Part shown: positions 1,400 to 56,270 of the stretch, piece after piece
Layout: every line of letters begins with the position of its first letter
How positions within the stretch are numbered: position 1 is the first letter of the stretch
Source of the DNA: Nemertoderma westbladi
Lineage: Eukaryota; Animalia; Xenacoelomorpha
Assembly: GCA_032718475.1 (NCBI GenBank)
Contig: JAUCBJ010004437.1
Span: forward strand, 22,939 to 86,938
Direction: 5' to 3'
DNA: 64,000 nucleotides
The notes under the pieces: model-generated
What the model was told of the DNA's origin: nothing
The model's input: the letters and a program-made list of their open reading frames with translations, nothing else
The model's database searches: none
Made by a program: the position numbers and the translations under genes

Positions 1400-1865
1400 G
1401 ACTGATCCAACCAATCTAACTGTCTACAGATTTATTGAATCACATCAGAAAATTATATAATCCCATTACAAGGTACCTTCCGAGGTGCTATTAATTTCGC
1501 ATAAACATGCTTCGCTATTGCAGTTAGATTACCATACTCCCAAACTTGGTTTAATCCATTTGGGTGTCCTATGAATTTGGACACCGTCACTTTAGGAGGC
1601 CCTTCCAGATATTCTAGGAGAAATCGAAGCTTTTCACCATTAGATACTGTAAAACTGAGTTTTGTATATTATCTTTATAATGTCTTTCCTCTATCCTCTT
1701 TCGTAAATGCAGTATGGAAATATTCATTTAAAAATATAGCCTTTTCGATATCTGCTGTAGCAAACAAACCAAATTTCTAAAAGATTTTGGGGTTACTATG
1801 GGCATCACTTGCAATTTTACGTTCGTAGGCGTTCGAAAGCATATTTGTTTCTAGCTTGCTTGTAG
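1400..1865 (-). mobile_element. Degenerate CR1-type LINE ORF2 fragment (left part, split by the outer LTR element); left boundary approximate
   Basis: Minus-strand translation gives FATADIEKAIFLNEYFHTAFTKED, a typical CR1 linker motif. Joined across the TGTAG TSD with 32168+, it reads ..AYKQARNK. Confidence 0.7.
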
Positions 1866-3488: not shown

Positions 3489-4619
3489 TTAACTCGTTTG
3501 GTACAACGTTCTCCGCCACTCTGGTGACAGGTTATATCGTGTCAAGCCGGGACGATGGTAAGGGTTAAACGGCGATATTAAATGTCCGCGTCCCAATCCG
3601 GCTAGGTAGAATGGGCTAATATCTAGGAAGCCCACAACTAGGGTGCCACCGACTAATTGTTCAGGTAACACTAGATCTTTGAGCAGTGAGTACAGCTCGG
3701 GAGGATCCGTCATACTAATAGGATCAAGAGTCTGAAGTCTCACTAGGGAATGAGGAGTTCTGATCGAGTATTCCGAAACTCTGATCATTGGTTTATTTAA
3801 GGATCGTCTGAGTCGAACGAGCGTAGGTGATACATCGAACAAGTTTCGCTCGAAACTCCCGTAAGTATAGCGAGTAAAACCGTGTTTAAAGCAACGTCTC
3901 CGCGGATGTTTATGTCTTTCCGTTTGTTGGTTGGGTCTTGGGCATTCATTGCAATAATACCCAAAAACGTACGTCTTGTAGGGGAAACGCGAGTGATCTT
4001 TCTCCAGCTTACAATATTCCTCCATCCGTTCGAAGCTATTCGGTACAACAGGTAGCGGTCGATCGGCGGTAAGATACATCATAGGGGAATAGAGCCGTTT
4101 GAGTTCTACCATGCGGTCATGATGTATACCTTGAGGATATCGAGTTTCTAGATTTTGTTGACTGGCAATATTGAGATATGTTTCTATCAGGAATTCCAGA
4201 TAATCGTTGAAGTCGCTGCGTTTATCCGGCTCCTCAACGTCTTCTCTTTCGAGTCTGTTTCGAATAGAATTCTCGTGTTCCATTCTCGGTTTATCGTTCC
4301 GCCTCCGCTGGGTAGGATATTTCAATCGTACCATTTCCCTTTTGGTGTCGACATTGTCCGTATTGTGTAAATCGATAGGATGGCCAGTAGTTAAGAAGTC
4401 CACATACGTACCATTACGATGCGTATAGCGAGCGGTGAATTTCTTATAGTCCAACTCACGCGTGAGCTGCTCTTGGGACATTGGCGGTTCGATATAACGA
4501 CCATCGTCCTCCACAGCAGTTGGACCAGCGTCGCCGTGTATCAAGCTATCAACAAACGCTTGTAAAGGTAGAGTATATCGCTCCCTGATACCAAGATCAT
4601 CTTCTATCAACTCAATCAT
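3489..4619 (-). CDS. Accessory ORF of outer element, 376 aa, unknown function; a degenerate continuation runs to about 3250
   Basis: Open ORF between integrase and 3' LTR. No signal peptide or TM segment. Cys/His cluster (CNEC..H.H...CFKH). Homologous to 53430-54325. Confidence 0.75.
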   Translation of the reverse strand: MIELIEDDLGIRERYTLPLQAFVDSLIHGDAGPTAVEDDGRYIEPPMSQEQLTRELDYKKFTARYTHRNGTYVDFLTTGHPIDLHNTDNVDTKREMVRLKYPTQRRRNDKPRMEHENSIRNRLEREDVEEPDKRSDFNDYLEFLIETYLNIASQQNLETRYPQGIHHDRMVELKRLYSPMMYLTADRPLPVVPNSFERMEEYCKLEKDHSRFPYKTYVFGYYCNECPRPNQQTERHKHPRRRCFKHGFTRYTYGSFERNLFDVSPTLVRLRRSLNKPMIRVSEYSIRTPHSLVRLQTLDPISMTDPPELYSLLKDLVLPEQLVGGTLVVGFLDISPFYLAGLGRGHLISPFNPYHRPGLTRYNLSPEWRRTLYQTS

Positions 4620-6274
4620 ATCTGCTATATAAATTTATCCATATTATAATGAGTTTACATTTAGGCGAGCGGGCGTCGCTGCCTACCCCTCTCTGCCCCC
4701 GGACAGTGCGAGATCCTCAGCGCTGATGTACTTTCGCCGATGTGCCTATCGCCAACGTCGTAGCTGCACAACGACTACAACAACCAGCACGAGCCACTCC
4801 ACCGTCCGTCCCAAAGGCTTAGATATACTTCAGGTTCTTACTGGAGAGTTAGGGTTACTTTCACAATTGCGACTCGCTACTGTAAACACACCTTAGTAGT
4901 AACATTCACCTACAAACGCACAAATTCCACGTAACTGTCACAAATTGTACACATTCTATCACACATTCGGGTCATTTGTCCGTTAGTCAAGTGCCTTCCA
5001 GAATGTCACGTTGTTATTATGTATCTTTAGATACTAGCGGTGTGCTATTTATTCCGTATGCTATTCAATGGGCAAGCCTGTTATTGTTCTTTTAACTCAC
5101 TTCTAATTCTAGCGTGGTTGTTGCCATGGTGACATTATGGAAAGCTAGCAGTAGAATTAGGGTAATTCTCATGCATACAGATCTGGGATGCTATTTAATA
5201 GTAATTCTTTAATGGTCAATATCCCCTTTATACATGATTCTATGAATTTTATCGGCTATTGACTATACATTGGAGATTCTCGCACACAAATACACTTAAT
5301 AGAGTGAATCTCCGCTCCCATGATCTATTAATTAATGGAATTTTGGGAATGTTATAAATTGTATAAAATGACAATTTATTAAATTCATCGAAATATCTGA
5401 ATTTAAATTTATTCCCGTAAATTTTATTATTTAATGTTAAATAGACACAATTTTATTCCAGAACGTGTCTGGGGACTGGGATCCTTGATTCTAGGAATTT
5501 TGTCCTTTTAAGAGTATCGGTAAGTGCTACGATATCTTAATCGACTAGAATTTTAAAGGATCTGATATTTGACAGATTTTTGTAAATATTAATAATTAAT
5601 ATTTAGGATGGGCACCAGTTTATTCCAGAACTTGTCTGGGGACGTTAACCATTGATTCTAGAAATTTGTCTTTCAAGTATATCGGTGGGTGCCGCGATAT
5701 CTTAATCGACTAGAATTACATATGGTCAAAGGGTTTAACAGATTTATTTTGCGTTATACGCTACTGTTAAAAGGACATCACGCTACTATATGTATTATTT
5801 AATATACGGTATGAGAGCAATATCGCACGAAGCAATGTCAGTGTGAAGAGGCAAGTCGTTTCCAAGGTCTACCCAGAGCTTGGTTTAGCCGAGACACGAG
5901 GATCTGAACTTTGCATTCCTAATACTCTGCCTACCAATAATACTTGAATATTGTAGTGGCTTTATTGTACTTTAATAAGTACGAAGATTTCATCTTACTG
6001 TAGTCACGTATTGATAATGTAATACGGGCAGTAAGGAAAGAGAAAAATTAATTATTTCTCGCCATCACACTAAATATATAATATAAGTAATTACGTACGT
6101 AATAAACACTAATATATTGCACTAATCTACTAAATGATCACTAAAATAACATGTTACTAAATAAAATTAAATAAAACGATTAAAATAAAATTACATAATA
6201 ATACATACATAAATATAAAAATAAAACAAATACAAATATAAAGTAATATGGTCACACACCCACTCCAGCCGTTG

Positions 6275-9200: not shown

Positions 9201-11562
9201 GCGTCTCGGTTGTCATCCGCAGTGGTGCGCACCACGGAACAGGTGTTTGAAGGGCTCGAGATTATCCCAAAAGCTTGGATGGTCATCCAGTACTCCACAG
9301 GTTTCTTATTGAGGTCTCCTTCAGGCCACCACAAAAATCGTAGGCTATCTCGATCCCTATCCAGCGCTTTGACTTGTAAGAACATGCCTTCTATATCTGA
9401 GGCGAAAGCAATGGAATATTGTCTTAATCTTAATAGTATTCCCAACAAGGATTGGAGTAAGTTGGGTCCGGGTAACAATTCAGAATTAAGAGATTGGCCC
9501 ATATAAAGTGTGGAACCGTCAAACACCACTCGTACTTCATGGGGTTTACCGGGTTTGGGAACGTAATGGTGAGTTAAATAATACGTTCTCTCAGTTATAG
9601 GGGTTTCTGCCGGTACTAGCTCCGCATATCCCTTGCTAATAAACTTCTTCAACTGCGTTTGATACATTTCTTTAGCTGAAGAATTTGCCGTAAGGCGTCG
9701 ATGTAGTTGAGCAATTCTTTTCTCCGCCAAAGGTCTGTTGTTAATGAACTTTGGTTCTCGCTTTCGGAAAGGAAGACCGATCTCATATCTACCTTGATCT
9801 TTAAGAAAACGAGTAGTTGTCGCTTGGATCTGCTTGGCTCTTTCTTCCTCCACCGATAGGGCCTTATCGTAGGAGTTGGGCTCTACGACTTCTTGAGTAA
9901 AGAATCTCACGGCGTGTTCATCTCGAGTCTTGGCATTATAACGTTCAATGACGTCATTAAGCTCGTCGTTATAGTCGTCTCGCTCGGATGGGAGAAGGAG
10001 TTGACATAAGTTCACTTGATTTTGCCAAGTCTCGCTTTCCTTAAGGAGATCGATGGCATTCTCCTCATCAAAAAGTTGATGTATATCGTCGTTGTCTGAG
10101 GAGTATGGAGTTCCCTCAGTTGGATCGTCGAACTCACTGTTCTCAACTTCCCATTCTCGCACTTGATATACTTGATCTTTCGGTAATCTTTCTATGAGAG
10201 TTCTACGGGAAGGGCCAGTAAAGTACCAACCTACTCTAGTTCTTACCGCATAGGTTTGTAGTGGCTGCGGTTGAGCAGGCCGTTTCTCCAATGTCTCGAG
10301 CGCCTCATGCGCGTTTTGGCCGATGAGTATTTGCACTCCAGGATAATCAGTCTGGAATCGAGGTATCTTAAGATATTGAATGCTCTCATCCTCGTCCCAA
10401 TTATAAAGGTCTGCTTGAGTAGTAGCGAAATTCTTTATAGCCACCATTTTCACTGACCTTATGCTACGTTCTCCTAGTTCGTCCTGGGGGGTGGACAACG
10501 CACCGACATAATAATCCGCGGTTACTGTGGATTTCCAAACTTGCATAATTCCCGACATGTTTAGCTTAGTTCGGAACTTGGGTTGTCCAGCGAATATGTC
10601 TTCGGCTAGCTCTTTGTCGATGAATGTTCCTGTACTACCTGAGTCAAGGAGGGCGTTCACTACATAACTCCTTTTTGGTCCGTGGACCCTTACCTGTACC
10701 ACAGGAAATTCTCTAATCCCTACATTGGAAGTTGGCGCTTTCCAAAATGGTTGTTGATCAGAAGTAGTTAGGGTAATGTCGCTGTCCGTATCCTTTTCAT
10801 ACATGAGTGCTCGATACACTGTGGTATTTATTGTGTAACAGGATTCGTTTTCGTCGGAGAACTTGTCTGTATAGAATCCTTCCATCTCAGATTGATCAGT
10901 GTCGTTCACATCACTGAATTGGACATGTAGTTCGGAATCACTTACCTGACTCGGACTATTTCGCTCGAATTCCGTGTGCAACAAGATATGATGTTTCGCA
11001 CCGCACTTGGCACATCTTGTGTCAGAGTAACAGGTTCGCCGTTGGTGTCCATGTCTGAGGCAATTATAACACAACCGCTTATCCCACATGACTTCACGTC
11101 TCTCAGTTAATGATTTCTTTAGAAATTCATCACACATATTTAAGCGATGGGTCCCATCACATAGCGCACATTTCGGTTTGATGTTACTTACCTTACTCTG
11201 AGTAACATTGTGTACACTTGTCTTTTCTTCTGGCTTTCTCACCTGAATTCTCTTGGGAGACGTAGGAGGAGTTTTTCTTACCTGTTCTCTCCTGTCATTG
11301 GTTCGAGACTTGAATTTACTTACCTGATCTTTAGGCATTTTATTGACATAATAAGATCTGTCAGTGTCTTTCCCGCTATCTTCTCCTTGAGAAGTCTGGC
11401 TTTCGCCGTCGTCTGTATAACACACTGGTGTTACCTTTCTCCTAGAGACGGGTTTTTCACTTACCTTGTTTTCCGGTGTCTTCTCTCTGGACAGTTTTAG
11501 GAGCTGTAATTTCACTTCTCCATCTAGGAATGACATGAGATCAGCCATGGTAGGGTCTCGTC
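6275..11562 (-). pseudogene. Outer element gag C-terminus plus pol (zinc knuckles, protease, RT, RNase H, integrase) with one in-frame TGA at 7454-7456
   Basis: CALCDGTHRLNMC, CYNCLRHGHQRRTC, CAKCGAKHHILLH (BEL triple knuckle); LLDSGS; YMDD; FGDAS; H..HAG..CIPC; VDLFGP, SDKGTNF, WERL. ORFs 7454-11548 and 6275-7276 are in the same frame. Confidence 0.95.
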
Positions 11563-12100
11563 TGTGACGGGATCCAGGAGGGATCCCGATTTATCCGATG
11601 TGGTATTTAGTCCACGCGTCCCCGCCGTGTATAAGAGTGAAATAAAGATAACTGAGTTCTGAAGTTCGGTGTATAATAATAGGTTATAGGATATAGATAT
11701 ATTGTGAATTATACGGTAGGCGGGATACGGTAACTAAAGTCCCGTGATCCCCTAACTAAACTAATTGGCTGTACCCTACGCTAGCACTGCTGCACTGAGA
11801 TAACTGAATCACTGATTAATAGGTTATTGGTTATATTGCACGGTGGCCTTACTGCTACTCAATCGATGCCATTCCCCCCTCTGATTGGTTAATACCCTTG
11901 TTGGCGCCCCGTGGAGTATTCCCGTTCACTCCACCTATTTCCTCTGGGTTAGGGGTTTGGCCCCTGACCCTCTATTGTGTGCTTCCTTCCCACTCTTATT
12001 GGGATGGCACGAGTTGGTTAATTGCCCAATCTCGTGGCTCCCAATATTGCTTATCGGCTTATAACTTTATGGGGTGTTGGCGGGATTGAATAAGCTAACA
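11563..12100 (-). repeat. 3' LTR of inner element
   Basis: Direct repeat of 25451-25988; TG..CA ends. Confidence 0.98.
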
Positions 12101-12110
12101 CTCCCCCCCA
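12101..12110 (-). other. Polypurine tract of inner element (TGGGGGGGAG)
   Basis: G-rich run abutting the 3' LTR. Confidence 0.85.
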
Positions 12111-12985
12111 TGCTATCTTCCCGGTAAGAAGATAGCATCAACCAAAAAAGTGCGTTACAATCCCGCTGGATCCCGATCTAGTATCGGGTGTGGGGTGGAA
12201 TTCTTTTCTCTAGGAGCCGGTTTTCCAGGCCGCCCCCTATGGGTATGATAACGCTACCCTGTGTGCCTGGCGTCTCATGTCGGGCCGATCGCGCTCACCT
12301 CTTCACACGACCTTTGTTTCCCCAACACTTTCGCCCTATCTCACCTTCACTCTCACCCTAGCTCTCTCACATTCGGACCTCCCCGTCCCTTACTCAGCCT
12401 CTTATCCTCCCCCCCCACACTCTAGAATCGCGTCCGCACTCTCTCTGCACTCCACTCTATCACTTCGATCCTCAACCTCACTTTGACTGTTTTTATCTCT
12501 CCTGACGAACCTCCCCCCCCTCTCGTGCCGTCGCACTCAAGAAGTGTGAAATTGTCAGTTGTCTCGTCCATAGTGCCATAGTCAGTTATTCCCCCCAGTC
12601 CCACTAGCTAGTTGAGAAGGGTTGTATGACTATAGTACTTACTCCAAACGTATGTATTTTACTGCTAATCACTACGTACGTACATACAAATTGCACTTAT
12701 ATGATTATTTGCATTAATTAAATTTGTACTTAATAGTTCGTACGTTACATGCGGCGCCTTCCAGGCGCACCACTTCCCAGTCTCAGTCTCATTCCCTCGT
12801 CCCCGGGAACTTATCTGTTCCTCCTCACGTCCTCTTCCCTGGCCCGTTTCTTGGTTATCACCGCTCCTCTGGCATCATCCGCTTTCTGCTTCCGGACCTT
12901 CGCTGCCACTTCCTTGCTGATCCCGGTCGTCGGCTCCTTGGGCGCTGGTGTTATTAAAGCCCGATACCGCTTCGCCGGTGGCCCC

Positions 12986-15349
12986 TCAGAATGGCCTGGT
13001 TGTCTCCCTCGTGTGGCGTCCCATAGGATCATTTTCATTGCCTTTGGTACGTACGTGTTCCGCCAAGAAATCCCTAAACTCCCTCCGGTTCTCTGGTGTC
13101 CACCTGTCCAGGTACCGTTGCGTATTCATAACTCCGGCGAACGATGCCGCCGTTGCTACTTCTTGATAGGTAAACGGTAGCCTTCGCTTTATGATTTCCA
13201 TGTGGGTCTCCTGGTTTATGAGGAAGAAACCCCACTTGAACTCTTGGGCCTTCATGCGCTGGCGCGTCATGGCCCCGACGTCGGCCCACTCCTCGAGCCT
13301 CGTGAACTTCTCCTCGTCGCTCATCCAGTCGCACTCGCGTCCGTAGTGTCCCCGAAAGTGGCACTTTGGACATCGGTTATGCAACCGTGGACACGCCCCC
13401 ATCCTGTGACTTGGTTCTCTACAGTAGAGACAAAAGGTTCCCCGTTGGAACCGGTATAGGCAGCTGCTTTCCCGATGGGTCTGTCTCCCACAGTAGTCGC
13501 AGCCGAGTACCAATGTCTCGCGTCCCACCTCGTCTTTCGTCCCAAGCGATCTCCGCGGTCTATGGAGTCGCTGGTAGGCGAACTTCTCTACGTTGCTCTC
13601 CCTGTTTACGTCTATCCCTCCGCCCCTCTCGGGCATCGTCTCCCCGAATACTATCCGTGGTGCCGTTCCCGGTTGCTCGCCCAACCTGATGGTGCTCCCC
13701 GCGAAATCCATCGCCGGCTCCTCGTGCACCCAGGTCCGCTTGCCGGATCTGTTCCAGAAGGCCCTCGCCCCACTGGCCGTCACCACCCTTCCGCCAACCC
13801 AGTCCGTGTCCGAGTGGCCTATCCTCTCGATGGGCGGCATCTCTCCGAACTCGTCGTCGTCGTCCTCCTCTTCCGGTAGTGTCTCCAATCCTGGTATCCC
13901 GATGGATCCACTATGTCCCTTCCCGCCTTGGCTCTCGCCCGTAGCTCTCCATCCCTCCAGCTCCCTTAGCTTCCTTGGCGGTTGGTCGCCCTCGGCGCCC
14001 GCTGGTATGGGTATCGTGTGCAACCCCGACGTCGACTGTTTCGGCGATCCCACCGTCCATCCCAATTCTCGCCCTAGAGACTCCCCCGAACTCCCTGACG
14101 AAGTCCAATGAAGTTCGTCTAGGCCCGCCTGTTCCTCGAAGCCGTAACTCTGTGCCCTGGCCTCCTCTTCCCTCTCCTCTGCTTCTATCCTCTCCCGTCT
14201 AGCGACTTCTTCCAGTCGCTTTGCTTCTCGTCTGTCCGCCTCTAGCTGCTCCCATCTCTGATACGGTGTATCTGTCTCCCCGTCTACCAGATGTCGGCTG
14301 TTGTAGTACACCGACTCGCCCTTCAGCCCCGGGTGGTCTACCAGACCGTCAAAGGCCACTTTAAAGGCTCTCCTGTAGCTTAGGGGTGATCCCGATAACA
14401 GAAATGCCCCTGGTTCCCTTTCGATAACTACGGTCATGAATAAGTTAAGCAAACTTATCATCATCCAGTCCTCCTGCAGGATATATCGCTTCTGATATAC
14501 CTTTATCGCTCCTCTGCGAAACTGATATACCTCCTGCTTTCCCGGTCTCGCTCCCCACTTCAGCGAGTTCGCTAGTTCTGCTCCGTATTCTTCCCTAAAC
14601 TTCCCCCAATCCATTGGTTTGTGGCATACGAGCCCCAATAATTGGCCCATCGCCACCGCCCCGCATTGGCCTGAGTTCTCGACCACCCCCAATCCATCCG
14701 GTGCCGTCATAGCCATAAAGACTTTCTGCATATCCAGGAGGTTGGTGGCGTCCGGACCGATGATCCTCTCCGCGTCCTCGCGAATCGCCGATCCCACTTT
14801 CGTCGTCGACTTCTCTCTTACTAAGACTTGTACCGCTTTTGGCAACCGGTCTAATTTCGGCCCGTCCTTCTTCCCATACGTCCCTAGGTCGAATAAGAAG
14901 ATGTCCCCATTTGGCGCTGCCAAATGCAAGAGTATGGTCCTGGCCGACCCTGCCGTTCCTCGTCTCGAACCCGCTTCGTCTTCCACGGTTCCCTCGTCAT
15001 CTAGGATCATATATCCTCCTCTGTTGACGGACTCTATGAATCTTTTCCAGTCCTTCCTCGGCGATTCCCTCGGATACTTCGGAATCCCGAACTTCGCCTC
15101 GTCTCCTCTCACCACGTAGTGGAAGTGTTGGAAGATCGCGTTGTCCAGCGACGGCGTCCCGTAGGTCCCGACCAACCGCTGTTCGTGCGCCTCCCGGAAG
15201 TGATCCTGCAGCGCTCGTGCCGCGTGACCCCTTTCCAACCTCTCGTAGTATCCTCTCGTCTTCTCCTCTGGGTGTCTTTCGGTGAAATCCACCAATATTT
15301 CTTTTCCTCCTGACTCCGCCTTCCTCTTTCTGATCAGCTTACTCGCCAT
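12986..15349 (-). CDS. Accessory protein of inner element: WRN/Mut-7/EXD-like DEDDy 3'-5' exonuclease domain, acidic linker and three CCHC-type zinc knuckles
   Basis: ExoI YMILDDEG; LLHLAAPNGDIFLFDL; LPKAVQVLVREKSTTKVGSAIREDAERI (ExoII); LLDMQKV; ExoIII-like QKRYILQED. C-terminal CDYCGRQTHRESSC, CLYCREPSHRMGAC, CPKCHFRGHYGREC. First ATG at 15349. Confidence 0.8.
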   Translation of the reverse strand: MASKLIRKRKAESGGKEILVDFTERHPEEKTRGYYERLERGHAARALQDHFREAHEQRLVGTYGTPSLDNAIFQHFHYVVRGDEAKFGIPKYPRESPRKDWKRFIESVNRGGYMILDDEGTVEDEAGSRRGTAGSARTILLHLAAPNGDIFLFDLGTYGKKDGPKLDRLPKAVQVLVREKSTTKVGSAIREDAERIIGPDATNLLDMQKVFMAMTAPDGLGVVENSGQCGAVAMGQLLGLVCHKPMDWGKFREEYGAELANSLKWGARPGKQEVYQFRRGAIKVYQKRYILQEDWMMISLLNLFMTVVIEREPGAFLLSGSPLSYRRAFKVAFDGLVDHPGLKGESVYYNSRHLVDGETDTPYQRWEQLEADRREAKRLEEVARRERIEAEEREEEARAQSYGFEEQAGLDELHWTSSGSSGESLGRELGWTVGSPKQSTSGLHTIPIPAGAEGDQPPRKLRELEGWRATGESQGGKGHSGSIGIPGLETLPEEEDDDDEFGEMPPIERIGHSDTDWVGGRVVTASGARAFWNRSGKRTWVHEEPAMDFAGSTIRLGEQPGTAPRIVFGETMPERGGGIDVNRESNVEKFAYQRLHRPRRSLGTKDEVGRETLVLGCDYCGRQTHRESSCLYRFQRGTFCLYCREPSHRMGACPRLHNRCPKCHFRGHYGRECDWMSDEEKFTRLEEWADVGAMTRQRMKAQEFKWGFFLINQETHMEIIKRRLPFTYQEVATAASFAGVMNTQRYLDRWTPENRREFRDFLAEHVRTKGNENDPMGRHTRETTRPF

Positions 15350-15861
15350 TCCGAACACTACACTCGCTCACCTGTAGGGTGGTGCCTTAGCAAGGCGCAA
15401 TACAGATGAGTGATGTATTAAGATGTTTCGTACAGTTCGATAATGGCCTACTTTTCTACTTAACTGCGCCTTTCAAGCTTAATTTAATCTAATTAATTTC
15501 GGAGCTAGTAAATCAGCCTAATTTACAATTTCCGTCCGTTACTTTTATTATGTTCTAGAACGACTTTCCTTGTGTTACCACTATTTTCCGATTTTAGCCC
15601 TATTCTATTTATTTATTTATTTTGCTTTGATTCTACTGTCCTACTACTTACTACTGCCTATGGATTTATTCTATTCTCTCTCTAATCCATATTCTGGCCT
15701 ACTCAGTGGGCCTATGCAGTACAGCAGTATGCGTCGTGTGGCCACACGATTTATCCAGCTGCACTCATATGCCCCCCTCTCGCTACTAACTCTACTTACT
15801 GCTAATTAATATCTATATCCTATTTACCCCTTTTATCTCTCACTCTCTCTCTCTAACTAAT

Positions 15862-16550
15862 GGTACTACGTACCTACTAACTCTAACTCTAACTAGGTAC
15901 TATGTACCTACTAACTCTAACTAACTATTGGTACTACGTACCTACTAACTCTAACTAACTATTGGTACTACGTACCCTCTAACTCTAACTCTATCTAGGT
16001 ACTACGTACCTACTAACTCTCTAACTATCGGTACTACGTACCCTCTAACTCTAACTAACTATTGGTACTACGTACCCTCTAACTCTAACTCTAACTAGGT
16101 ACTACGTACCTAGTAACTCTCTAACTATCGGTACTACGTACCCTCTAACTCTAACTCTAACTAGGTACTACGTACCTACTAACTCTCTAACTATCGGTAC
16201 TATGTACCCTCTAACTCTAACTAACTATTGGTACTACGTACCCTCTAACTCTCTAACTATCGGTACTACGTACCCTCTAACTAACTAACTCTAGGTACTA
16301 CGTACCTACTAACTAACTAACTCTAGGTACTACGTACCTACTAACTAACTAACTATCGGTACTATGTACCCTCTAACTCTAACTAACTCTAGGTACTACG
16401 TACCTACTAACTAACTAACTCTAGGTACTACGTACCTACTAACTAACTAACTATCGGTACTACGTACCCTCTAACTCTAACTAACTCTAGGTACTACGTA
16501 CCTGCTAACTAACTAACTTTAGGTACTACGTACCTGCTAACTAACTAACT
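15862..16550. repeat. Tandem array of 21 units of 32-34 bp with hairpin core GGTAC-TAC-GTACC and CTAA repeats
   Basis: Counted directly; lies between the integrase stop and the accessory ORF. Confidence 0.95.
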
Positions 16551-16654
16551 TTTATTTTTATTTTTATTTTATTTGTGTGGGAAGGGCGTCTCGCCCTCAA
16601 TCCCACCCCCCTCAGTCCAAGACTTGGACGACTAAACTCCACTCTAACTCCGCT

Positions 16655-19600
16655 CTAAGGTGCTCCTTCTAAGAGACAGCATTTACCTACCGCTCTCCTG
16701 TAGGTTTTTCTGTCCTTCGCACCTATCTTTCCACCTATCCGCACTTCTACCGATCGGACTCTTCCGTCCTCGTCGGAGTAGGTGTCTACAACTCTCGCCA
16801 ACCGCCATTGGTTGTTGATGATAGTATCATCCGTGACGATTACGAGATCTCCCTCTCTTAACTCCCTGTTCGGCTTCCTCCACTTGCTTCGCTTATGGAG
16901 CGTGGGTAGGTATTCTTCTACCCACCTCCTCCAATACTCTGCGCTAATTGCTTTAGCTACTTTCCAACTTTGGCGGGAGTGTATATCATCTGGGTCTACA
17001 CCCCGCATATCGATGGTCGCTGGCCTTTCCATCAGGAAATGGCTAGGCGTCAACACGTCTAATGACTCAGGGTCATCATTCTCCGGGTATAGCGGTCTGC
17101 TATTAATGATCCCCTCGCACTTCGCAAGTACTGTCCGTAAGACGTCTTCAGTGACCATGTGGGTGTTCATCAGCTTCGTCATTAGACGTTTTGAACTGCC
17201 CACGAGTCTCTCGACGCATCCTAATGTATGTGGTGCATACGGCGTCCTTCTCTCCCACTTCACTTGTCGTCTTCTCATGGCCGCCCTGACTTCTTCTCCC
17301 TCCAAGATGTCTATGGCCTCTGCCATCTCACTCTCTGCGCCCACAAAATTGGTGCCGTTGTCGCTATATATCACTGCGATCGTCCCACCTTTGCAGTCCC
17401 TAAACCTTTCTAAGGCGTTAATGAATGCTGATGCGGTTGCATCTTGGGCGAGTTCTATCCCTACCGCCGCGTATTGTTGCATACGAAGATAATACCGTAG
17501 CGTTTCTCCGTGTGTCGCATCACCTTGATCTTTATCGGCCCGAACATGTCCACACCGCAATGCGTAAATGGCGGGTCGTGCTGTCTTAACCTACTCGCCG
17601 GTAGTGGTGCCATCTCCTGTACGGCTCGTTCCTTCTTCGCTCGTCGGCAGGTCTGGCACTGCCCCACTACCGCTTTAACCTTCTTCCTTAGTTGTTTGAC
17701 CCAATAGGTCCTCCTTATCTCTGTGAGGGTTCGGTTGGTGCCCCCATGCAGTATCGATTTGTGGGAGTCCCATATGATCTGGTGGACTATAGGCGATCCT
17801 GTGGGAACGATGATGGGTTTCGGTGGCACGACTATACTGTTGTTGTATCCCACCCTAGAATTCATTACTAGAATCCCATCCTCGTTGAGTTGTGGCGACA
17901 GCGTGATCAACTCGCTATCCCGTCGGAGGTGCTGTTGGTTACCGACGCGTTCCACCTCGTCGCCGTAGTTCTTGCGTTGTTCATAGCGGATCACTGCCTT
18001 GGCCGCTCCTTCCAGATCTATGGTTGTCCTGGTCTTCTTGTCCTTGCCGACTCCCGCAAGGAAATTCCCAAAGGCTCTCCAGTACGCCACTAGTTTCTTG
18101 GTCTTATACCAACTAGAACTGTAGCTGAGGAGTTTATCCGTCGGGTTATCGCACAGTTCCCTTCCTGGTTGCACGTCCCTAATCTCCCTCACCATCTGGG
18201 AGTATATCTCTTCTCCCTCTGAATCTCCTTCTCCTTCTGATACTGGTTCCGAGCCCGGGTCCACCTTCCTCATCGGCGGCCAGGCCTCTCTATCGCTCAG
18301 AAATTGTGGCCCATGTTGCCACAATACTTCCTTCTTCAGGAAAGTGTGGCGTTCCACGCCCCTCGACAGCAAGTCCGCTGGGTTCTCATCTGTTGGGCAG
18401 TAGTGCCACCTTTCTAGTTCTGTGCTCGCCCTTATTTCGTCCACTCTATTCGCGACGAATATCGGGTATCTCGTCTTTTCGTTGTGTAGCCAACCAAGCA
18501 CTACCATGGAGTCCGTCCAGTAGTGTGTCTCCACTATGTTGGGAATTGTATCCACTAGGTAGGCTGTGGCTCTAACTCCTAGTCTCGCAGCTGTCAATTC
18601 TAACTTGGGAACAGATGCTGAATCTGGCGGCGTTGACTTAGCTTTGCTAAAGGCAAGTCTGGGCTTGTGAGGCCCCTCTCGTTGTACTAAATAGAGTGCC
18701 GCTCCGTATGCCTCTAACGACGCGTCGGAGAACATATGTAAGTCCAGATTCGTCATGTTCCCGTCCGGAAAATACACTCGCGGCATGTTGTATGTTCCCA
18801 TCCTCTCCAAGTCTCCTGTCCATTTGCTCCACTGTTTCTTGATGTCCTCTGGTACCTCTACATCCCACTCATCCTTCAATTTATATACTCTCTTGAGTAT
18901 CTGTTTCCCCGTGACTAGTAGTGGGGATGCTAGGCCTAGGGGATCGTATATCCTTGCTATATACGATACATAACCCCTCTTCGTATGGGTGTCTGCGCCC
19001 TCCTGGCTCAGCTGATACTTCAGTTCGTCTGTTTTCCTATCCCACACGATTCCCAATGCCTTCTGCTGGGATTCCGTTCTCTTAATCGCCATGTCCTGTC
19101 CTTTGGCTGTTGTAGGGTTGTCCATGGTCGATTCTGGTTTCTTGTCTTCTATTTCCTTGATAAATTCTTCTGAACTGGATTGGAATTTGGTCAGGTTGAA
19201 GCCGGATCCTTTCAGGATGTCGCGAACCTCGCGCCCTGTTTCCAGTATCTCCTCAACCGTATTTCCAGACTCCATACCGTCGTCTACGTAGAAGCCGCGT
19301 CTGATCATATCGACGGCCCTACTGCTATATCTATCTTCCTTCCCCTTTACCGTGTCTCTCACTGCCATAGTCGTCGTAAATGAGGACGACTTGGCCCCCA
19401 TGTTTTGTACTACCATCTTATACGCTGGTATTACCGGCGGTTCTTCTTCGCCGTTATACCATAAGAAGCGTTGACTGTCACTATCTTCTTCCGTTACACG
19501 TACCTGGTTGAACATGCCTTCTATGTCACACGTGAAGGCGTGTTTCCCGTTTCGAAACCTAAGTAACACCTCTATGCCCGAATTGTAAATATTTGGGCCT

Positions 19601-22600
19601 TCCAACAGGTAATCGTTTAAGCATTTTCCGTCGGTCTTTGCCGATGCATCGACTACCATCCTCAGTTTACCTTTCTTTGGGTCTAATGCTACGTGGAGTG
19701 GCAGGTAGTATGTCCTGTCCGTATTCGGCTCGTCGACCGGTAACTCCACGGCCCATCCTTTCTCGACGTACTTCTTAATGGTTTTGTGAATGTACTCGTT
19801 CTTCTCGGGGCTCCGTTTTAGTGTTTGTTTCAGCTTGCGGAGTCTCGTGAGTACCATCCCTCTATTATCGGGTAGCGGTATCTTCGGTAGTTTCCATACC
19901 ATTCCTATTGTATACCGCCCCTCATCACACGTCATCGATTCCTCCACGCTTTGTAGAGCCTGTTTGTCTTCTACCGAGGTCCCGACCCCGGTCTCTTTCA
20001 GTCCCTCAAAGTCTTGCCTGAGCAGTCTTTTAAGCTGCTCCTCTGCACCCTCATCACCCATTTCCTGCATTGTTCCCGCGAACATGCATCCTGATGTCTC
20101 CGACATCCTGAATGGTATCTTGCTCTTAATTGGACCACTCAGCGTCCACCCGAATGGCGTTAGTATAGCCACCGGGTCGCTCTGCTTGTCTTCGCCGAAG
20201 ACCGTTTGCATTCTTTCGTGGGCCGTCGGGCAGTCCATTCCTACTATGATGGATACCTTCCTAACGTCCACGTCTGGGATCGAGAAGTCAATGTCGTCCA
20301 GGAATTTGTATTGCTCGACCTCGATGTTGGTTGGCCGCCTGGCATTGATGTTAATTGACTCTATTACTTGGATGGGATCGATGGTTGCCCCATAATCGCA
20401 TCCTGGTGCTACTGCTGCAATTGCGCACCGTCCTGTCCTCATCTCTAGGATCTCATCTTTGCTAGAGATGGTTGTTACCGCCATCCTGCTTGGCCTTGTT
20501 CTCAATCCTATTTCTTCGGCTACCCATTCCTCTACTAATGTGAAGGCAGCTCCGCTATCAACCAGCATCAGTGTTGTTACTGATCGATTGCCTTCCCCGA
20601 TCACTCGTACTGGTACTACTCCAAGTAGCACTGTTCCTCTCTTCTTCGCCCCTACTGTGCTCGTTGCCATCGTCTGGCCTCTCCTTTGGCCAAACTTGAC
20701 CGGCTTCTCTTGGCATTCCCTGGCCTTGTGTCCACTCTTCACACATCGCGAGCAGATTTTATTGCTCGACGCGTAATCTATCTGGTCTTGCCTCGGTAGC
20801 GCCTGCCAGTACCTGCAGTTCATGGTTTTATGAAGCGCATTTGCGTGTAACTGGCATTTGCTCTTTGGGTCGTAGCCCTCTTTATACAATGCATTGCGTA
20901 TCGCAGTTATGTTTGTACCAAAGTCCCTACTGTTCTTATTGACTGGATTTGGCCTACTGGACGTACTGGGGTTATGTTTATTCATGTTGTTATTGTTCCC
21001 CTGTCCGTCCCTTGATGTTGTCTTATCTTCGTTTGTCTGTGGACTTGCAGTCCCCTGCGTCGCTGCATATGGCAATGATTGCCTGAGTCTCGGTAACGCG
21101 TTCGATGTGTTGTGCTCTGGTTTTGGTCTATGGTAGTCTGTCTTTGGTCCCTTTCCCAGGCTGTCTTCACTATAGACTGGGTCCGTTATTAGTTCGGCCT
21201 CGTAATTTAAGAAGTTTGACATTTCTTCTAAACCTGGTTCCGCACCCTTCTTGTCTCGGGTGGAGAAAGCGATCTTCCTCCATTTGTTGCGCAGCCAGCT
21301 CGGTAGTGCCTGCGCTATCGTGGTGATGTTATTGGACGCGTTGAGCTCGTATGGCGCGTCTAGCGTCTTCAGCACGATCAGCGCCTTCTCGACTTTGTTA
21401 GCAAACGTCTTAATGCTAACGGGATTATCCTGTAGCCCACCCGATGTTATGCCTCTCAGCGTTTGCCTGATGATCTTGGCCGGGTGCCCGTATTCCCTAT
21501 CCAGTGCCCGCCATGCTGTCGTGAAGCCGCCCTCTATTCCCTGATATTGCCTCACGATGTTGTATGCTGGGCCTCCCGTGTACACATGTAGATACTTTAG
21601 GCACTCCGCCTGCGTCAAGTTTTTTGTTAGTATTTCGTTACTATACATTCGCCGAAACTGTAAGTATTCTTCCGGCCTGCTCCCATCGAATTTGAACGGT
21701 TCCGCGGGTGGTAATTCGATCCTCGTTTTCAACGCATCGATCAACGTGGCCATCCCCATTGCCTGCGCTTCTAATGGATTCGACGGGTGCTGTATAGTTT
21801 CCCCTGTCTGGTGCGGTTCGTCCGTCCTATTTCTTGATCTTCTCTGACTCGGATATGTCATCGGGGGTAGCGGCCCCCTCCATATGTCTGTGTCACACGA
21901 CCTGTTTTCGTCCAAGGGTTTCGTTGTTCTTGCTACCATCGGGGTATATTGTTGATATTGTGATGGGGGAATGTCACCCTGTCCCCCCCCCCCACCGGTA
22001 TGTCTGGTACTGGGGTTGATGTTAATACGTTGGGGCCCATGCACCTATCCGCAACAACTCCCCCCTCCCCTGGGTATATGTTATGTCCCTGCATGCTGTA
22101 GTCATACTGCTGTGCTGGTACCGATATAGGCCTATCAGCTTCTGGCCTACCCGCCGGTATGTATTCCGCGACTTCCGGGTTTAATTCCGTCGTTCGCGCT
22201 ATCCTATCGCCTATATAGCCTCTCTCAGTATGGCCTACGGTATGTGCAGTAAGGCCTATACTATGTCCTACAGTCTGCATGTGTTGTTCGGGATCGAAGT
22301 TTATTCTTCTTGAATAATCCTCCCCGCGGCTACCGTAATCTCGTCCGGAAGGTACATTCCGTCGGAAAGTTTCTCTCCGACCCCCCTCTCTACTGTTCTC
22401 ATCCTCGTACTGGCACATCGCGTACCCTTCTCTCGGCGTGCAATGCGCCTCGCCAGGTCGCATCTCTCCGGGGCGACGGCAATCTCCCGGAGTCCGACCC
22501 CACTGACTCTCCGTTCTCATCTCGACTACCGACGGCTCGCTGTCCGTCCTCGCTCTTCTATCGTTTGCGGCGATACTTCTACTACTGTCTTCCTTTCTTC

Positions 22601-25371
22601 TCCTATCAGTGGAATATTCCCGCTCGCGAGATCTCTCGTCGACCTCCCGGTTAAACCCCACTGTTCTTCTTTCCTCCTCTGGTCGGGCTCGACGCTCCGT
22701 CCGCCCTCTCGCGACGTCAACCTGTCCTTCCCTGCCCGGTCGCACGTCGCTGGGGATACTCGTAATCCCCCTATTACTTTCCGTCACCGGTTGTTGCGGT
22801 TTACCTATTTCGGCCCTCGCATTATCCGCTGACGGCTGTGGGACACTCTCTGCCCCCCCCCCCCTTCTCGCCGCTAACTCTCTGTTGTGGGGCCCTCGTA
22901 GCCCCCCCCCCACTCGCTACATCTAACTTCGCTACCTCTTTCCCCGCTATTATATACCTCTCTAGTCGACACATCAACCCTACCACGGTCGGGTCTGTTC
23001 ACCCCCGCCTCTCCCTCTGCTATTGCGTGGCCTACCAGGCCCTCTACTCCCTCCCTACCAACCACGTGGCTTACCAGGCTCTCTGCTCCCTGTCTACTAA
23101 CTACGTGGCCCACCAGGCCCTCTGCTCCCTGTCTACTAACTACGTGGCCTACCAGGCCCTCTGCTCCCTGTCTACTAACTACGTGGCCTACCAGGCCCTC
23201 TGCTCCCTGTCTACTAACTACGTGGCCTACCAGGCCCTCTGCTCCCTGGTTATGTAGGCCCGACGTGTTTGCATTAATAGCACCTATATTAGAAACGGAA
23301 TCAATTTGCTCGTTTGAAACAAAACCATTTGCATTATTCTGCGCGACTACGTTATTTGAGTTATTTTGTAAATTCGGGCATGGGTCATTATTTAAATTAT
23401 TCGAATTATTTTGCGTAATTGCGTTATTTAAATTATTTTGTAGGTCCGAGTTCGGATTATTATTTTGATTATTTGAATTATTTTGCGTAACTACATCAAC
23501 ATTAGGATTATTTTCTACATTAGTATTGGGATTGTTCTGATTTAAATTTAAATTACTACCACTAGGCAAAGTATTTCCTGCAATAAAGGTTTGATTAGTG
23601 TTATCCCATACGGTACTATTAATATCAACAACGTCTACAGTACCAATATTATTATTACCCCCCCCCCCCCCCCCCCGTTCGTACGGTTGCACCAGTCTTG
23701 AGTCTGTCGTGCGGTCCCTGTCAGTGGGGTATTAATAAATGTTTCTACGGCCCCCGGCTCCCTAAAAATACCCGAGCCGGCCCCGCTTTCAGACGGCGCT
23801 TTTCGCACGAGTTGCAACTCGTGCGCCCGTTTAATCTCATCTCCCGCAGACTCACTCTGTAGTCTCTCTATTTTCTTGTTTTCTCCCTCAGTCTCTGCCA
23901 CTCTTCTCTCACGCTCCCGGGTGTCCCTAATGGCCGACTCTGCAGCACTCTTAATACTCTCCCTTCGTCTCACTTCGCGCTCCTTACGTTCCTTTTCCTC
24001 TCTCGCCTCACGCTCCTTGCGTTCCGCCTCACGCTCCTTGCGTTCCCTTTCCTCCCTTGCCTCACGCTCCTTGCGTTCCCCTTCCTCTCTCGCCTCACGC
24101 TCCTTGCGTTCCTTTTCCATTCTCGCCTCACGCTCCTTGCGTTCCGCCTCACGCTCCTTGCGTTCCGCCTCACGCTCCTTGCGTTCCCTTTCCTCCCTTG
24201 CCTCACGCTCCTTGCGCCCCCTTTCCTCTCTCGCCTCACGCTCCCTACACTCCCTTTCCTCTATCTCATCATACTCCCTTAGGCTTTTCAAAGCCCTTTC
24301 GGCCCTCTCTCCTGTTTCTTTAAGCAATGCCGTTTCCCTCTCTAACCGCACTCTCCCTTCCTCTAGCCGTTCCTTCATTTCTCTATGATCTTTCGCTGCC
24401 ATGCTGAGACGATATTCGGCACCTATCTCTCTCACCGCTCTTCCTTTCGCGGAGGATGTAACAGACTTATCGGTTACGACGGATTTCCCCCGCCTTCCCG
24501 ACCTACTGATTTCCCCCCGCTTCCCGGAGCTTTCTCCGACCGACGAGGCCGAATCCTCGGGGTTAACCTCGGATTCGCCCCCTTCGGGTTCCCTCCAGCC
24601 TACTGGTTTTACTCCCCGGGCATCGACCAAGTATGGCCCTATGTACACTGACGCTGCACTAGGTTCCATACTCCCACACTCCCATAGTTCAAACAGTTCC
24701 CCGGCAATCCCGTGTGCTCTCGTTTCGGCTAGTTCTCTTTGCCCAAAACGTATTAGGTAATTTATGTGTCTATCCGACTCACCTAGTCGCTTTCTCAGTC
24801 TCACCTCGTCTACCTTCGCCCCTTCCTTCTTGGCGTCCTTTATCATCCTTCGGGTCGCGTTGTAGGCCCGTCGAAGTCGCTCTGATACCCCGACGTCCTC
24901 GTCGCCGACCTCTCCTCCGGCCCTCCGGGTTCGACGTCGTACCGGCGGCTCCACCGTCGCCGTTCCGGTGGGCCGTCCGTCGCCCTCGGCCTGTTGCTGG
25001 CCGGCGACATCGGTACCAATCTCTCCTCCGTCTCTTCGCGTCCGGCGTCGTACCGTCGGCCCCACCGTCGCCGTTTCGGTGGGCCGCTCGTCGCCCTCGG
25101 CCGGTAGCTGGCCGGCGACATCGGCGCGCCGTTCTCCGTCTCGTGTCGACTCGTCTCTTTCTCCCTCGACCTCGTTCTCTCTATCCTCCGGCTCGAGTCC
25201 CTCTCCTCTCAACTCGGATTCTGATTCCAGACGGTCCCCCTCATCTTGGACTTCCGGGTCACCCGTTACCGATGGCTCCGGCGTCGTGGGCCTATACCGC
25301 CTGGTCGCGGCCTCGCGGATCGTTTGATCTTCGTCCGGGGTCCGCGTCGGTGTCTCGCCCGATTCACTCAT
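16655..25371 (-). pseudogene. Inner element gag-pol polyprotein, broken by frameshifts (three at G-runs, one 1-nt loss near 17467)
   Basis: Consecutive ORFs 23635-25371, 22874-23692, 21933-22913, 17461-22044, 16655-17560. BEL gag core (PFKFDG..YLQF), CSRCVKSGHKAREC, LVDSGA, FYVDD, FSDAS, HGG..CQTC, VDMFGP, SDNGTNF, VERLV. Confidence 0.93.
23026..23248 (-). repeat. 39-bp coding tandem repeat (QGAEGLVGHVVSR, about 5.5 copies)
   Basis: Visible tandem units; only one minus-strand frame is open across them. Confidence 0.9.
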
Positions 25372-25450
25372 CTCGTTTGTGGCTGATGATTCGGCTAGCT
25401 AGGTTACAGTTCTTGATGTTCAACTAGGGCGGCAGCTCGGATTTAGTTAC

Positions 25451-25988
25451 TGTGACGGGATCCAGGAGGGATCCCGATTTATCCGATGTGGTATTTAGTC
25501 CACGCGTCCCCGCCGTGTATAAGAGTGAAATAAAGATAACTGAGTTCTGAAGTTCGGTGTATAATAATAGGTTATAGGATATAGATATATTGTGAATTAT
25601 ACGGTAGGCGGGATACGGTAACTAAAGTCCCATGATCCCCTAACTAAACTAATTGGCTGTACCCTACGCTAGCACTGCTGCACTGAGATAACTGAATCAC
25701 TGATTAATAGGTTATTGGTTATATTGCACGGTGGCCTTACTGCTACTCAATCGATGCCATTCCCCCCTCTGATTGGTTAATACCCTTGTTGGCGCCCCGT
25801 GGAGTATTCCCGTTCACTCCACCTATTTCCTCTGGGTTAGGGGTTTGGCCCCTGACCCTCTATTGTGTGCTTCCTTCCCACTCTTATTGGGATGGCACGA
25901 GTTGGTTAATTGCCCAATCTCGTGGCTCCCAATATTGCTTATCGGCTTATAACTTTATGGGGTGTTGGCGGGATTGAATAAGCTAACA
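25451..25988 (-). repeat. 5' LTR of inner element
   Basis: Direct repeat of 11563-12100. TATAA-like box about 30 nt upstream of a TCAGT Inr-like motif near 25694 (minus strand). Confidence 0.98.
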
Positions 25989-30740: not shown

Positions 30741-31020
30741 TACAATCTGAGCAGGCTTACACGCCTTCTGCTCAATACTGGCCTATAAATAAATAAAACT
30801 GACAGAAATAAGTAAGCTCCAAAAGAAACAAGGGGTGTACAGTCCCTAATCTCTTAAACAGCCTACCGGTATACAATACCACAATCGAATAATACTGCTG
30901 TACTTGTACTGTAAGTAAGTACCGGTCCGGATGATCAGGCAGTCAGGCCTACTGGTTACCGGTCGACCGGTACTTTCGACTAGATTGCTTACACCGCAAT
31001 CCAGAAGCAATATCTGTTAT

Positions 31021-54325: not shown

Positions 54326-54349
54326 CGCCCATTGGTGGTTTGATGTTTT

Positions 54350-55640: not shown

Positions 55641-56270
55641 CAGTAGAATGTAGTGAACTGGCTATATTACGATGGCTTTGTTTCAATACCCAGTACAAAG
55701 TATTGCTTGTTTTTTCTCAGTACTGATTTGTTATAGGTACACTTCCCTCATAATTTTTAAGGTAGCTAGTTTTTGCTATTTCTTTAAATGGATATGTTCT
55801 AGAATATGTTAGTTATGTTATTTAAAAAAATGAATAAAAATTGTTATAGAACAAGTATTGTTGTGTTCTAGAATATTTTTAAAAATAATAAAGAAAATAA
55901 TGTATTATTTTCTTTATTGTTAAATTATCTAGAACATCTTAGCTATTCAGAACTAGATTTAAAAAATGTTCTACTGCATTTAGTTTGCATAGTGCAATAC
56001 AACCCAACCCCAAATAAACCTACTGTAAACAAACATAGAAGGCCTACGTACTTGTAGAGTTGTGAATCTTTGTGTATAATCTTCTTATTTAGCTATAATA
56101 TTCTTAGCTATAAATTTTAGCTACAGAAAAACTACTGTCCTAGGAGATATAAATGCAACTTCATTAATTAAAAATATATCTCTTAACTATAAAATCTCTT
56201 AGCTATAAAATAAACAACTAATTTATAATAGCAAATTACTGTATATCAAATACCTTCAAATATCTTCACA

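What the first reader, a model, noticed from the sequence alone, without database searches (positions are those of the whole stretch)
12986..15349. BEL/Pao retrotransposon encoding a DEDDy 3'-5' exonuclease with three CCHC knuckles instead of Env
Seen: motif order and spacing match WRN/Mut-7/EXD2-type exonucleases (LDDEG, LLHLA..IFLFDL, LP..V..LV......KVG..I.ED, LLDMQ, Q..Y...ED), followed by an acidic linker and three zinc knuckles, in a very young element. ExoIII reads Y-x3-E-D rather than Y-x3-D, so activity is uncertain. Known: Mut-7/Nibbler-family enzymes trim small-RNA 3' ends, and I recall DEDDy accessory ORFs reported in bdelloid rotifer retroelements; I know no BEL/Pao case. Inference: an element-encoded anti-silencing nuclease acting on piRNA/siRNA, an RT proofreader, or an enzyme that trims the element's own RNA primer.
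Basis: partly seen in the sequence, partly recalled or inferred. Interest (0 to 1): 0.88.

Follow-up and report, generated by a model that had tools for sequence, protein, structure and literature searches.

The report
BEL/Pao retrotransposon carrying a knuckled exonuclease
A recently inserted BEL/Pao jumping gene carries, where an envelope gene would sit, an intact extra gene whose protein is predicted to join an RNA-trimming nuclease domain to three RNA-gripping zinc knuckles, and which likely helps the element against the host's RNA silencing, although no activity or target has been tested.

Summary
An intact 787-aa ORF (12986-15349, minus strand) lies between integrase and the 3' LTR of a young BEL/Pao element (11563-25988; 538-bp LTRs with one mismatch; 5-bp target duplication), itself nested in a second BEL/Pao element. 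The ORF has no membrane segment, has three CCHC knuckles, and shares codon usage with its own pol. Standard profile and homologue searches find nothing. A DEDDy (RNase D/WRN-type) domain at residues ~104-310 is supported by ESM Atlas features (25 of 30 hits PF01612), by a home-built profile (0 of 2000 shuffles score as high) and by a family-guided fold, which is partly circular. ExoI D117/E119, ExoII D192 and Y289 are present, but Glu293 occupies the ExoIII Asp column, so activity is open. The subfamily is unresolved: WRN, Nibbler, EXD1, Egalitarian and trypanosome RNase D tie. The best working model is trypanosome RNase D, an exonuclease with CCHC fingers that trims RNA 3' ends. DEDDy third genes are published for rotifer Ty3/gypsy elements; I found no BEL/Pao case in print. 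Verdict: new variant of a known kind. Linkage in other copies and the substrate are untested.

The parts
11563..25988 (-). Inner BEL/Pao LTR retrotransposon, 14,426 bp, nested in the gag-pol region of an outer BEL/Pao element
   Evidence: LTR pair and 5-bp target duplication at 11558-11562 and 25989-25993; Pfam domains
25451..25988 (-). 5' LTR, 538 bp, TG...CA
   Evidence: 1 mismatch to the 3' LTR
11563..12100 (-). 3' LTR, preceded by a polypurine tract
25442..25450 (-). Primer-binding position without a tRNA-type start; 9 nt complementary to LTR 25618-25626 (self-priming signature)
   Evidence: 9 of 4000 dinucleotide shuffles of the LTR hold the word; no tRNA gene in the window
16655..25398 (-). 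gag-pol (Gag, protease, RT, RNase H, integrase), split over five frames in this copy
   Evidence: three breaks fall at single-base runs of 10-19 nt, one near 17467 in integrase does not
15853..16550 (.). Tandem array of a ~32-bp unit, about 21 copies, between pol and ORF3
   Evidence: TRF, repeat family D3
12986..15349 (-). ORF3, 787 aa, intact, in the env slot
   Evidence: codon-usage correlation 0.79 with the inner pol, -0.19 with the outer pol
14420..15040 (-). Predicted DEDDy (RNase D/WRN-type) 3'-5' exonuclease domain, residues ~104-310: D117 (14999-15001), E119, D192 (14774-14776), Y289, E293 (14471-14473), D294
13502..14419 (-). About 300-residue linker with a charged helical-looking stretch (362-400) and an acidic run (493-501)
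   Evidence: sequence; no family hit
13331..13501 (-). Three CCHC zinc knuckles (residues 617-630, 640-653, 660-673)
   Evidence: ESM Atlas gives zf-CCHC-type clusters at 0.85-0.86, a lead only
12989..13330 (-). C-terminal 114 residues of unknown type
   Evidence: no match
12101..12240 (-). Structured 3' UTR end with a long hairpin abutting the polypurine tract
   Evidence: z -3.26, 0 of 200 shuffles fold as well

Best explanation
ORF3 is an intact accessory gene of this BEL/Pao element that encodes three CCHC knuckles behind a predicted DEDDy exonuclease domain, and it likely works as an RNA-gripping 3'-5' trimmer that would blunt the host's small-RNA silencing of the element. Shown: position, intactness, knuckles, no membrane segment, codon usage matching its own pol. 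Predicted: the RNase D/WRN-type fold and the register D117/E119/D192/Y289/E293. Inferred from trypanosome RNase D: the knuckles hold single-stranded RNA and feed its 3' end to a two-metal site, with E293 or D294 replacing the usual ExoIII Asp. Inferred and weakest: the substrates are unprotected silencing RNAs (siRNA, or piRNA precursors before 2'-O-methylation), and the protein is made from a separate, probably spliced, transcript.
For: ESM Atlas: 25 of 30 hits carry PF01612 (best 0.94, 172 shared features; family on 34% of that cluster's members); the other 5 are unnamed clusters, best 0.95. Profile from 100 bacterial PF01612 members: 12.0 bits, 0 of 2000 shuffles as high, reversed sequence -2.5. 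Global HHalign score 16.0 against a maximum of 8.98 in 126 shuffles. The family-guided AF2 model has pLDDT 71; its top Foldseek match is T. brucei RNase D (E 1.6e-3, TM 0.51) although that protein ranks low against the guiding alignment. In TbRND the CCHC fingers drive RNA binding and cleavage (PMC7797062 passages). A host-facing role is suggested, by inference only, by recurrence of DEDDy ORF3s in rotifer LTR elements and Penelope-like Terminons, which replicate differently (PMC5408684), and by the outer BEL/Pao element, in which no such gene was detected.
Against: No Pfam, PHROGs, NCBIfam or PDB sequence hit for the domain even at E 10, and no true homologue in any protein search. The single-sequence fold failed (pLDDT 32), and the good model was fed a DEDDy alignment, so the fold match is partly circular. 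Three narrower profiles did not separate the domain cleanly from shuffles (14, 55 and 415 of 2000 as high). The conserved-column count was unremarkable (8 of 16; 5 of 97 shuffles as high). The ExoIII Asp is a direct metal ligand in TbRND, whose D230A mutant is nearly dead, and here the column holds Glu. EXD1 and Egalitarian match the model as well as active enzymes do. Nothing here identifies a substrate. Mature piRNAs are methylated and protein-bound (recalled), so they are poor substrates.
Confidence: 0.38

Rival explanations
1. The domain has the DEDDy fold but little or no activity, and the protein is an RNA adaptor in the manner of Egalitarian or EXD1: it binds the element's RNA through the domain and knuckles and helps export, localise or package it.
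For: Glu in the ExoIII Asp column. Egalitarian and EXD1 are among the top structural matches. EXD1 and Maelstrom are inactive DEDD derivatives that keep RNA binding (PMC5408684 discussion passage). Cer1 encodes its own RNA-export protein (PMC10309623 title and passages). Earlier AI notes report dead DEDDh cargo in other retrotransposons (unchecked).
Against: ExoI Asp and Glu, ExoII Asp and the ExoIII Tyr are all retained, and a second acid (D294) is adjacent. Rotifer ORF3s also carry a D-to-E change and were judged intact.
Confidence: 0.27
2. The enzyme is active but works on the element's own RNA: it trims the 3' tail of the self-primer back to the duplex at the primer-binding site, or matures the 3' end of the transcript.
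For: The element has no tRNA-type primer site; 9 nt next to the 5' LTR pair with the LTR itself, as in self-priming Tf1/Tj1 (PMC4600332 passages). Knuckles could carry the protein into particles. The rotifer paper proposed processing of element RNA 3' ends.
Against: The outer BEL/Pao element has an 11-nt signature of the same kind (5 of 4000 shuffles), and none of its ORFs scores against the DEDDy profile or resembles ORF3. The transcription start is unknown.
Confidence: 0.2
3. The enzyme proofreads reverse transcription by removing mismatched DNA 3' ends.
For: The fold is shared with Pol I proofreading domains, which appear among the structural matches.
Against: It is a separate ORF, not fused to RT, and the closest matches by identity are RNA-acting proteins. 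No precedent in the paper searches.
Confidence: 0.04
4. The N-terminal domain is not DEDDy; the motif likeness is chance or very remote, and ORF3 is a nucleocapsid-like accessory protein like Cer19-ORF2.
For: All library HMM and homologue searches were negative. The Atlas calibration was not measured for parts of proteins. Six home-built profiles were tried before the best was quoted.
Against: Independent agreement of Atlas features, local HMM and global HHalign; colinear ExoI, II and III motifs, with gap-free spacing across the ExoIII helix.
Confidence: 0.08

Closest known systems
DEDDy-type ORF3 of bdelloid rotifer LTR retrotransposons Juno and Vesta and of Athena/Terminon elements (PMC5408684; abstract and passages read)
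   Same: RNase D-like DEDDy gene in the env slot of an LTR retrotransposon, no membrane segment, one catalytic Asp changed to Glu, activity undemonstrated.
   Different: The hosts there are Juno/Vesta LTR lineages (Ty3/gypsy, recalled) and Penelope-like elements; here BEL/Pao. Motif there DEED, here D-E-D-E. The paper mentions knuckles for Gag and Pol and a Cys-His-Cys motif in some DEDDy ORFs, but the passages seen describe no triple knuckle on ORF3. Homology could not be tested.
Trypanosoma brucei RNase D (TbRND; PDB 7c42-7c4c; PMC7797062 passages)
   Same: DEDD exonuclease domain followed by tandem CCHC fingers; top Foldseek match and highest identity (17-22%) to the model.
   Different: Cellular guide-RNA trimmer with four fingers on a 28-residue linker and a canonical ExoIII Asp; here three knuckles, a ~300-residue linker, Glu at ExoIII and an extra C-terminal part. 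No evidence of common descent of the architecture.
WRN exonuclease, EXD2, Mut-7/Nibbler, EXD1, Egalitarian, NrnC (PF01612 group)
   Same: Colinear motifs, including the Lys-x-Gly...Asp of ExoII and Gln-x2-Tyr of ExoIII; VIA Z 10-11.4 at rmsd 3-4 A over 160-178 residues.
   Different: 10-17% identity, insertions between ExoII and ExoIII, below any curated cut-off; no subfamily can be chosen.
Cer19-ORF2 (C38D9.2, F15D4.5) of C. elegans (PMC7084138 section 7 read)
   Same: An extra gene between the LTRs with zf-CCHC knuckles; Cer19 is a BEL/Pao element (recalled, not from a call).
   Different: Described only as nucleocapsid-like; no exonuclease domain mentioned in the passages seen; homology not tested.
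Gypsy elements with Rrp6-like exonuclease-HRDC-knuckle ORF3
   Same: Exonuclease plus zinc knuckle as a third gene.
   Different: Gypsy host, Rrp6-like domain with HRDC; here BEL/Pao, no HRDC seen, three knuckles.

Membership tests
BEL/Pao LTR retrotransposon | LTRs TG...CA with a 5-bp target duplication | tested here: met
BEL/Pao LTR retrotransposon | Pao-specific domains and order PR-RT-RH-IN | tested here: met
   PF05380 E 5.3e-40, PF03564 E 4.9e-11, PF18701 E 3e-25, all over cut-off
BEL/Pao LTR retrotransposon | RT phylogeny within Belpaoviridae | not tested
   no reference RT sequences were fetched
DEDDy 3'-5' exonuclease (PF01612 group) | ExoI D-x-E after a hydrophobic strand | tested here: met
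   D117-D-E119; HHalign aligns it to the family's DTE; MAFFT used D117 and E123 instead
DEDDy 3'-5' exonuclease (PF01612 group) | ExoII Asp, 8 residues after the invariant Lys | tested here: met
   K184 and D192 in invariant columns
DEDDy 3'-5' exonuclease (PF01612 group) | ExoIII Y-x3-D | tested here: not met
   Q286 and Y289 match, but E293 is in the Asp column and D294 follows
DEDDy 3'-5' exonuclease (PF01612 group) | Score above the family's curated cut-off | tested here: not met
   no Pfam hit at E 10
DEDDy 3'-5' exonuclease (PF01612 group) | DnaQ/RNase H-like fold | tested here: inconclusive
   Atlas 25 of 30 hits PF01612; guided model pLDDT 71, Z up to 11.4 but partly circular; unguided model failed
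DEDDy 3'-5' exonuclease (PF01612 group) | Two-metal 3'-5' exonuclease activity | not testable with these tools
   needs an assay
WRN/EXD2/Mut-7 subgroup | Closer to these than to EXD1/Egalitarian/TbRND/NrnC | tested here: inconclusive
   rows tie within about 1 Z unit; no tree possible without eukaryotic sequences
Rotifer DEDDy ORF3 pool | [quoted passage not shown] | tested here: met
Rotifer DEDDy ORF3 pool | DEED motif | tested here: not met
   D-E-D-E here against DEED
Rotifer DEDDy ORF3 pool | Clusters with Juno/Vesta/Athena ORFs in a tree | not testable with these tools
   sequences not held; the one supplement file held had 694 characters and no hits
Env glycoprotein | Transmembrane anchor and glycosylated ectodomain | tested here: not met
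   maximum hydropathy 1.3, one sequon
Cer19-ORF2-like proteins | Sequence homology to C38D9.2/F15D4.5 | not tested
   sequences were not returned by any search

The most novel reading that the evidence does not exclude
BEL/Pao elements have independently acquired an active, TbRND-like nuclease with a non-canonical D-E-D-E site that destroys or mis-trims piRNA/siRNA precursors, that is, a transposon-encoded enzymatic suppressor of small-RNA silencing; it would be one of several parallel captures of DEDD nucleases across retroelement classes.
Probability: 0.25. Interest if true: 0.85.

Novelty: new variant of a known kind. Interest (0 to 1): 0.55.

Why it matters
DEDDy third genes of retrotransposons are described for rotifer elements and have no shown activity in the paper read. 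A case in a different superfamily, with RNA-binding knuckles and an altered active site, suggests repeated selection for an RNA-end-processing or RNA-binding function common to unrelated retroelements. The gene is intact, intron-free and soluble by prediction, so the open question (do transposons encode nucleases against small-RNA defence?) can be tested directly. The protein is invisible to Pfam and to homologue searches, so such genes are probably being missed in annotation.

Tried and rejected
Library scans of ORF3 gave nothing for the domain: Pfam, PHROGs, NCBIfam, PDB sequences. Homologue searches: 0 of 2240 candidates, 0 of 151, 0 of 158 at E 10; all three were limited to proteins near the query's length. 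The 1.84-billion-protein scan gave one hit, a 19-residue stretch matched 14 times, rejected as a repeat artefact. Related loci: none for ORF3 in metagenome or viral contigs, none for pol. tblastn of the domain: no phage hit and one plasmid hit at E 3; 52 of 401 bacterial genomes gave weak short matches at E up to 1, judged noise. The single-sequence fold was unusable. Global HHalign against the WRN-like-only alignment failed. The conserved-column test was not significant. CERV of Cer1 was considered and dropped: it has H, M and G domains with a C4 loop. No tRNA or Rfam family in the element. A recalled report that Klenow fragment tolerates Glu at ExoIII could not be found and is not used. The wide VIA search was not run because the machine was busy. 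No expression or copy-number data were obtained. Earlier findings by place and by sequence were empty, as were word searches for a BEL/Pao exonuclease.

Full report
The locus. The window holds two nested BEL/Pao retrotransposons on the minus strand. The outer one spans 1866-32167 with LTRs of about 1150 bp, 98.3% identical, and a 5-bp target duplication. The inner one spans 11563-25988 with 538-bp LTRs that differ at one position, end TG...CA and are flanked by a 5-bp duplication. Both carry the Pao-specific domains PF05380, PF03564 and PF18701. The inner gag-pol is split over five frames. Three breaks coincide with single-base runs of 10-19 nt and may be assembly errors; one near 17467 in integrase does not. 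No whole genome is held, so other copies could not be examined.

The observation. ORF3 runs from 15349 to 12986, 787 aa, between a 32-bp tandem array (15853-16550) and the 3' UTR. The longest frame in 1000 shuffles was 282 aa. There is no membrane segment. Codon usage correlates with the inner pol (0.79) and not with the outer pol (-0.19), which fits a resident gene rather than a fresh host capture (inference). A possible splice acceptor lies 22 nt upstream of the ATG (sequence printed); it could equally be read as a donor, so a spliced transcript is an inference.

Is the N-terminal domain DEDDy? Against: no hit in Pfam, PHROGs, NCBIfam or PDB sequences at E 10; no homologue among 2240, 151 and 158 candidates; one artefactual hit among 1.84 billion proteins; a failed single-sequence fold (pLDDT 32). 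For: in the ESM Atlas 25 of 30 hits for residues 60-330 carry PF01612 (best 0.94, 172 shared features, family on 34% of that cluster's members) and the other 5 are unnamed clusters, the best three fungal at 0.95; the tool's calibration was not measured for parts of proteins. I then built profiles from bacterial PF01612 members. Three narrow ones did not separate the domain cleanly from 2000 shuffles (14, 55 and 415 as high) and a pooled one barely did (5.5 bits against a maximum of 5.3). A WRN-like set, whose seed hits WRN, EXD2 and Mut-7 structures, gave 9.1 bits with 1 of 2000 shuffles higher, and a 100-sequence profile gave 12.0 bits with 0 of 2000 as high and -2.5 for the reversed sequence. 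Global HHalign gave 16.0 against at most 8.98 in 126 shuffles, while a count of conserved columns matched was not significant (8 of 16; 5 of 97 shuffles as high). AlphaFold2 with 59 bacterial DEDDy sequences (50 WRN-like and 9 of the 37 short RNase D-like ones fetched) gave pLDDT 71, pTM 0.65. Foldseek found nothing at E 0.001 or better in PDB; the rows shown down to rank 29 were all T. brucei RNase D, EXD2, Egalitarian, EXD1 or Nibbler. The top viral match was a Pandoravirus 3'-5' exonuclease (E 9.6e-4). VIA gave Z 9.3-11.4 for the 50 rows shown, all DEDD-type or polymerase exonuclease domains. This structural match is partly circular. Taken together I put the DEDDy fold at about 0.9.

Active site. 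D117-x-E119 aligns to the ExoI motif in HHalign, although MAFFT chose E123. K184 and D192 fall in invariant ExoII columns, and Q286 and Y289 in invariant ExoIII columns. The stretch F277-W295 aligns without gaps to the family's W...L...Q..Y...D.W, which puts E293 in the Asp column with D294 next to it. In TbRND this Asp binds the A-site metal directly and its Ala mutant leaves only trace activity (PMC7797062 passages), so the change matters. Activity is perhaps 60% likely (judgement).

How it most likely works. The best model is TbRND: an RNase D domain plus CCHC fingers, in which the fingers supply RNA binding and greatly raise cleavage. TbRND was the top Foldseek match and had the highest identity, although it ranks low against the guiding alignment; this is suggestive only, since the rows tie. 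The substrate is unknown. I favour host silencing RNAs because DEDDy third genes recur in elements that replicate differently and because the neighbouring BEL/Pao element shows none. The main rival is a non-catalytic RNA adaptor like EXD1 or Egalitarian. Primer trimming deserved a test: the inner element has no tRNA-type primer site, and 9 nt next to the LTR pair with the LTR (9 of 4000 shuffles), as in self-priming Tf1 and Tj1. But the outer element has an 11-nt signature of the same kind (5 of 4000) with no DEDDy-like ORF detected, so the signature does not depend on this gene. Proofreading has no support.

Known and new. PMC5408684 (abstract, outline and passages; one small supplement file searched; figures not seen) describes DEDDy ORF3s with a DEED motif in rotifer Juno and Vesta elements and in Terminons. 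PMC7084138 (passages and section 7) describes knuckle-bearing Cer19-ORF2, and the bioRxiv paper 10.1101/2024.05.01.592119 (passages) calls these proteins nucleocapsid-like; whether they hide a nuclease domain was not tested. PMC6338049 (passages) lists the DnaQ-like domain as a known LTR accessory domain. PMC6431247 gave no whole-word hits for my terms; PMC10309623 and PMC3601003 were seen as passages. Four searches (listings only, apart from the papers named) returned no paper on a BEL/Pao DEDDy gene; the library lacks most subscription journals, and Repbase was not searched. Unchecked AI notes of this scan report exonuclease-plus-knuckle ORF3s in gypsy elements and self-priming signatures in other BEL/Pao families.

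Verdict. A real, intact accessory gene; DEDDy-like fold probable; subfamily, activity, substrate and family-wide linkage open. It is a new variant of a known kind: a different superfamily, triple knuckle and altered ExoIII.

Noticed in passing
window 25442-25450 with 25618-25626; 31010-31020 with 31724-31734: Both nested BEL/Pao elements have, directly after the 5' LTR, a sequence complementary to their own LTR (9 and 11 nt, different letters) instead of a tRNA-type primer site: a Tf1-like self-priming signature.
   Followed up: partly
window 11744 and 25632: The single difference between the inner LTRs lies 6 nt upstream of the primer-complementary word; may be chance.
   Followed up: no
window 3489-4634 (-): The outer element has its own third ORF (381 aa open frame) with no family hit and no likeness to the inner ORF3.
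   Followed up: partly
window 53392-54334 (-): Decayed copy of the outer element's third ORF, 54-65% amino-acid identity, so that orphan gene belongs to a multi-family group.
   Followed up: no
window 12101-12240 (-): Strongly folded 3' UTR end with a long hairpin abutting the polypurine tract (z -3.26); candidate packaging or processing signal.
   Followed up: partly
window 21933-25398 (-): Very long low-complexity region ahead of the Gag domain, with charged, Asn-rich and 39-bp repeats.
   Followed up: no
window 56232-57086 and 59867-60481 (+): Two related open frames with a Cys-rich N-terminal part, a hydrophobic segment, a basic patch and GMGAP-type pentapeptide repeats; look like paralogous single-pass membrane protein genes.
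   Followed up: no
window 62380-63572: 20-bp tandem arrays in inverted orientation to each other.
   Followed up: no
window 1387-1647 (-): Fragment of another BEL/Pao gag, 64% identical to the outer gag, just outside the outer element.
   Followed up: no
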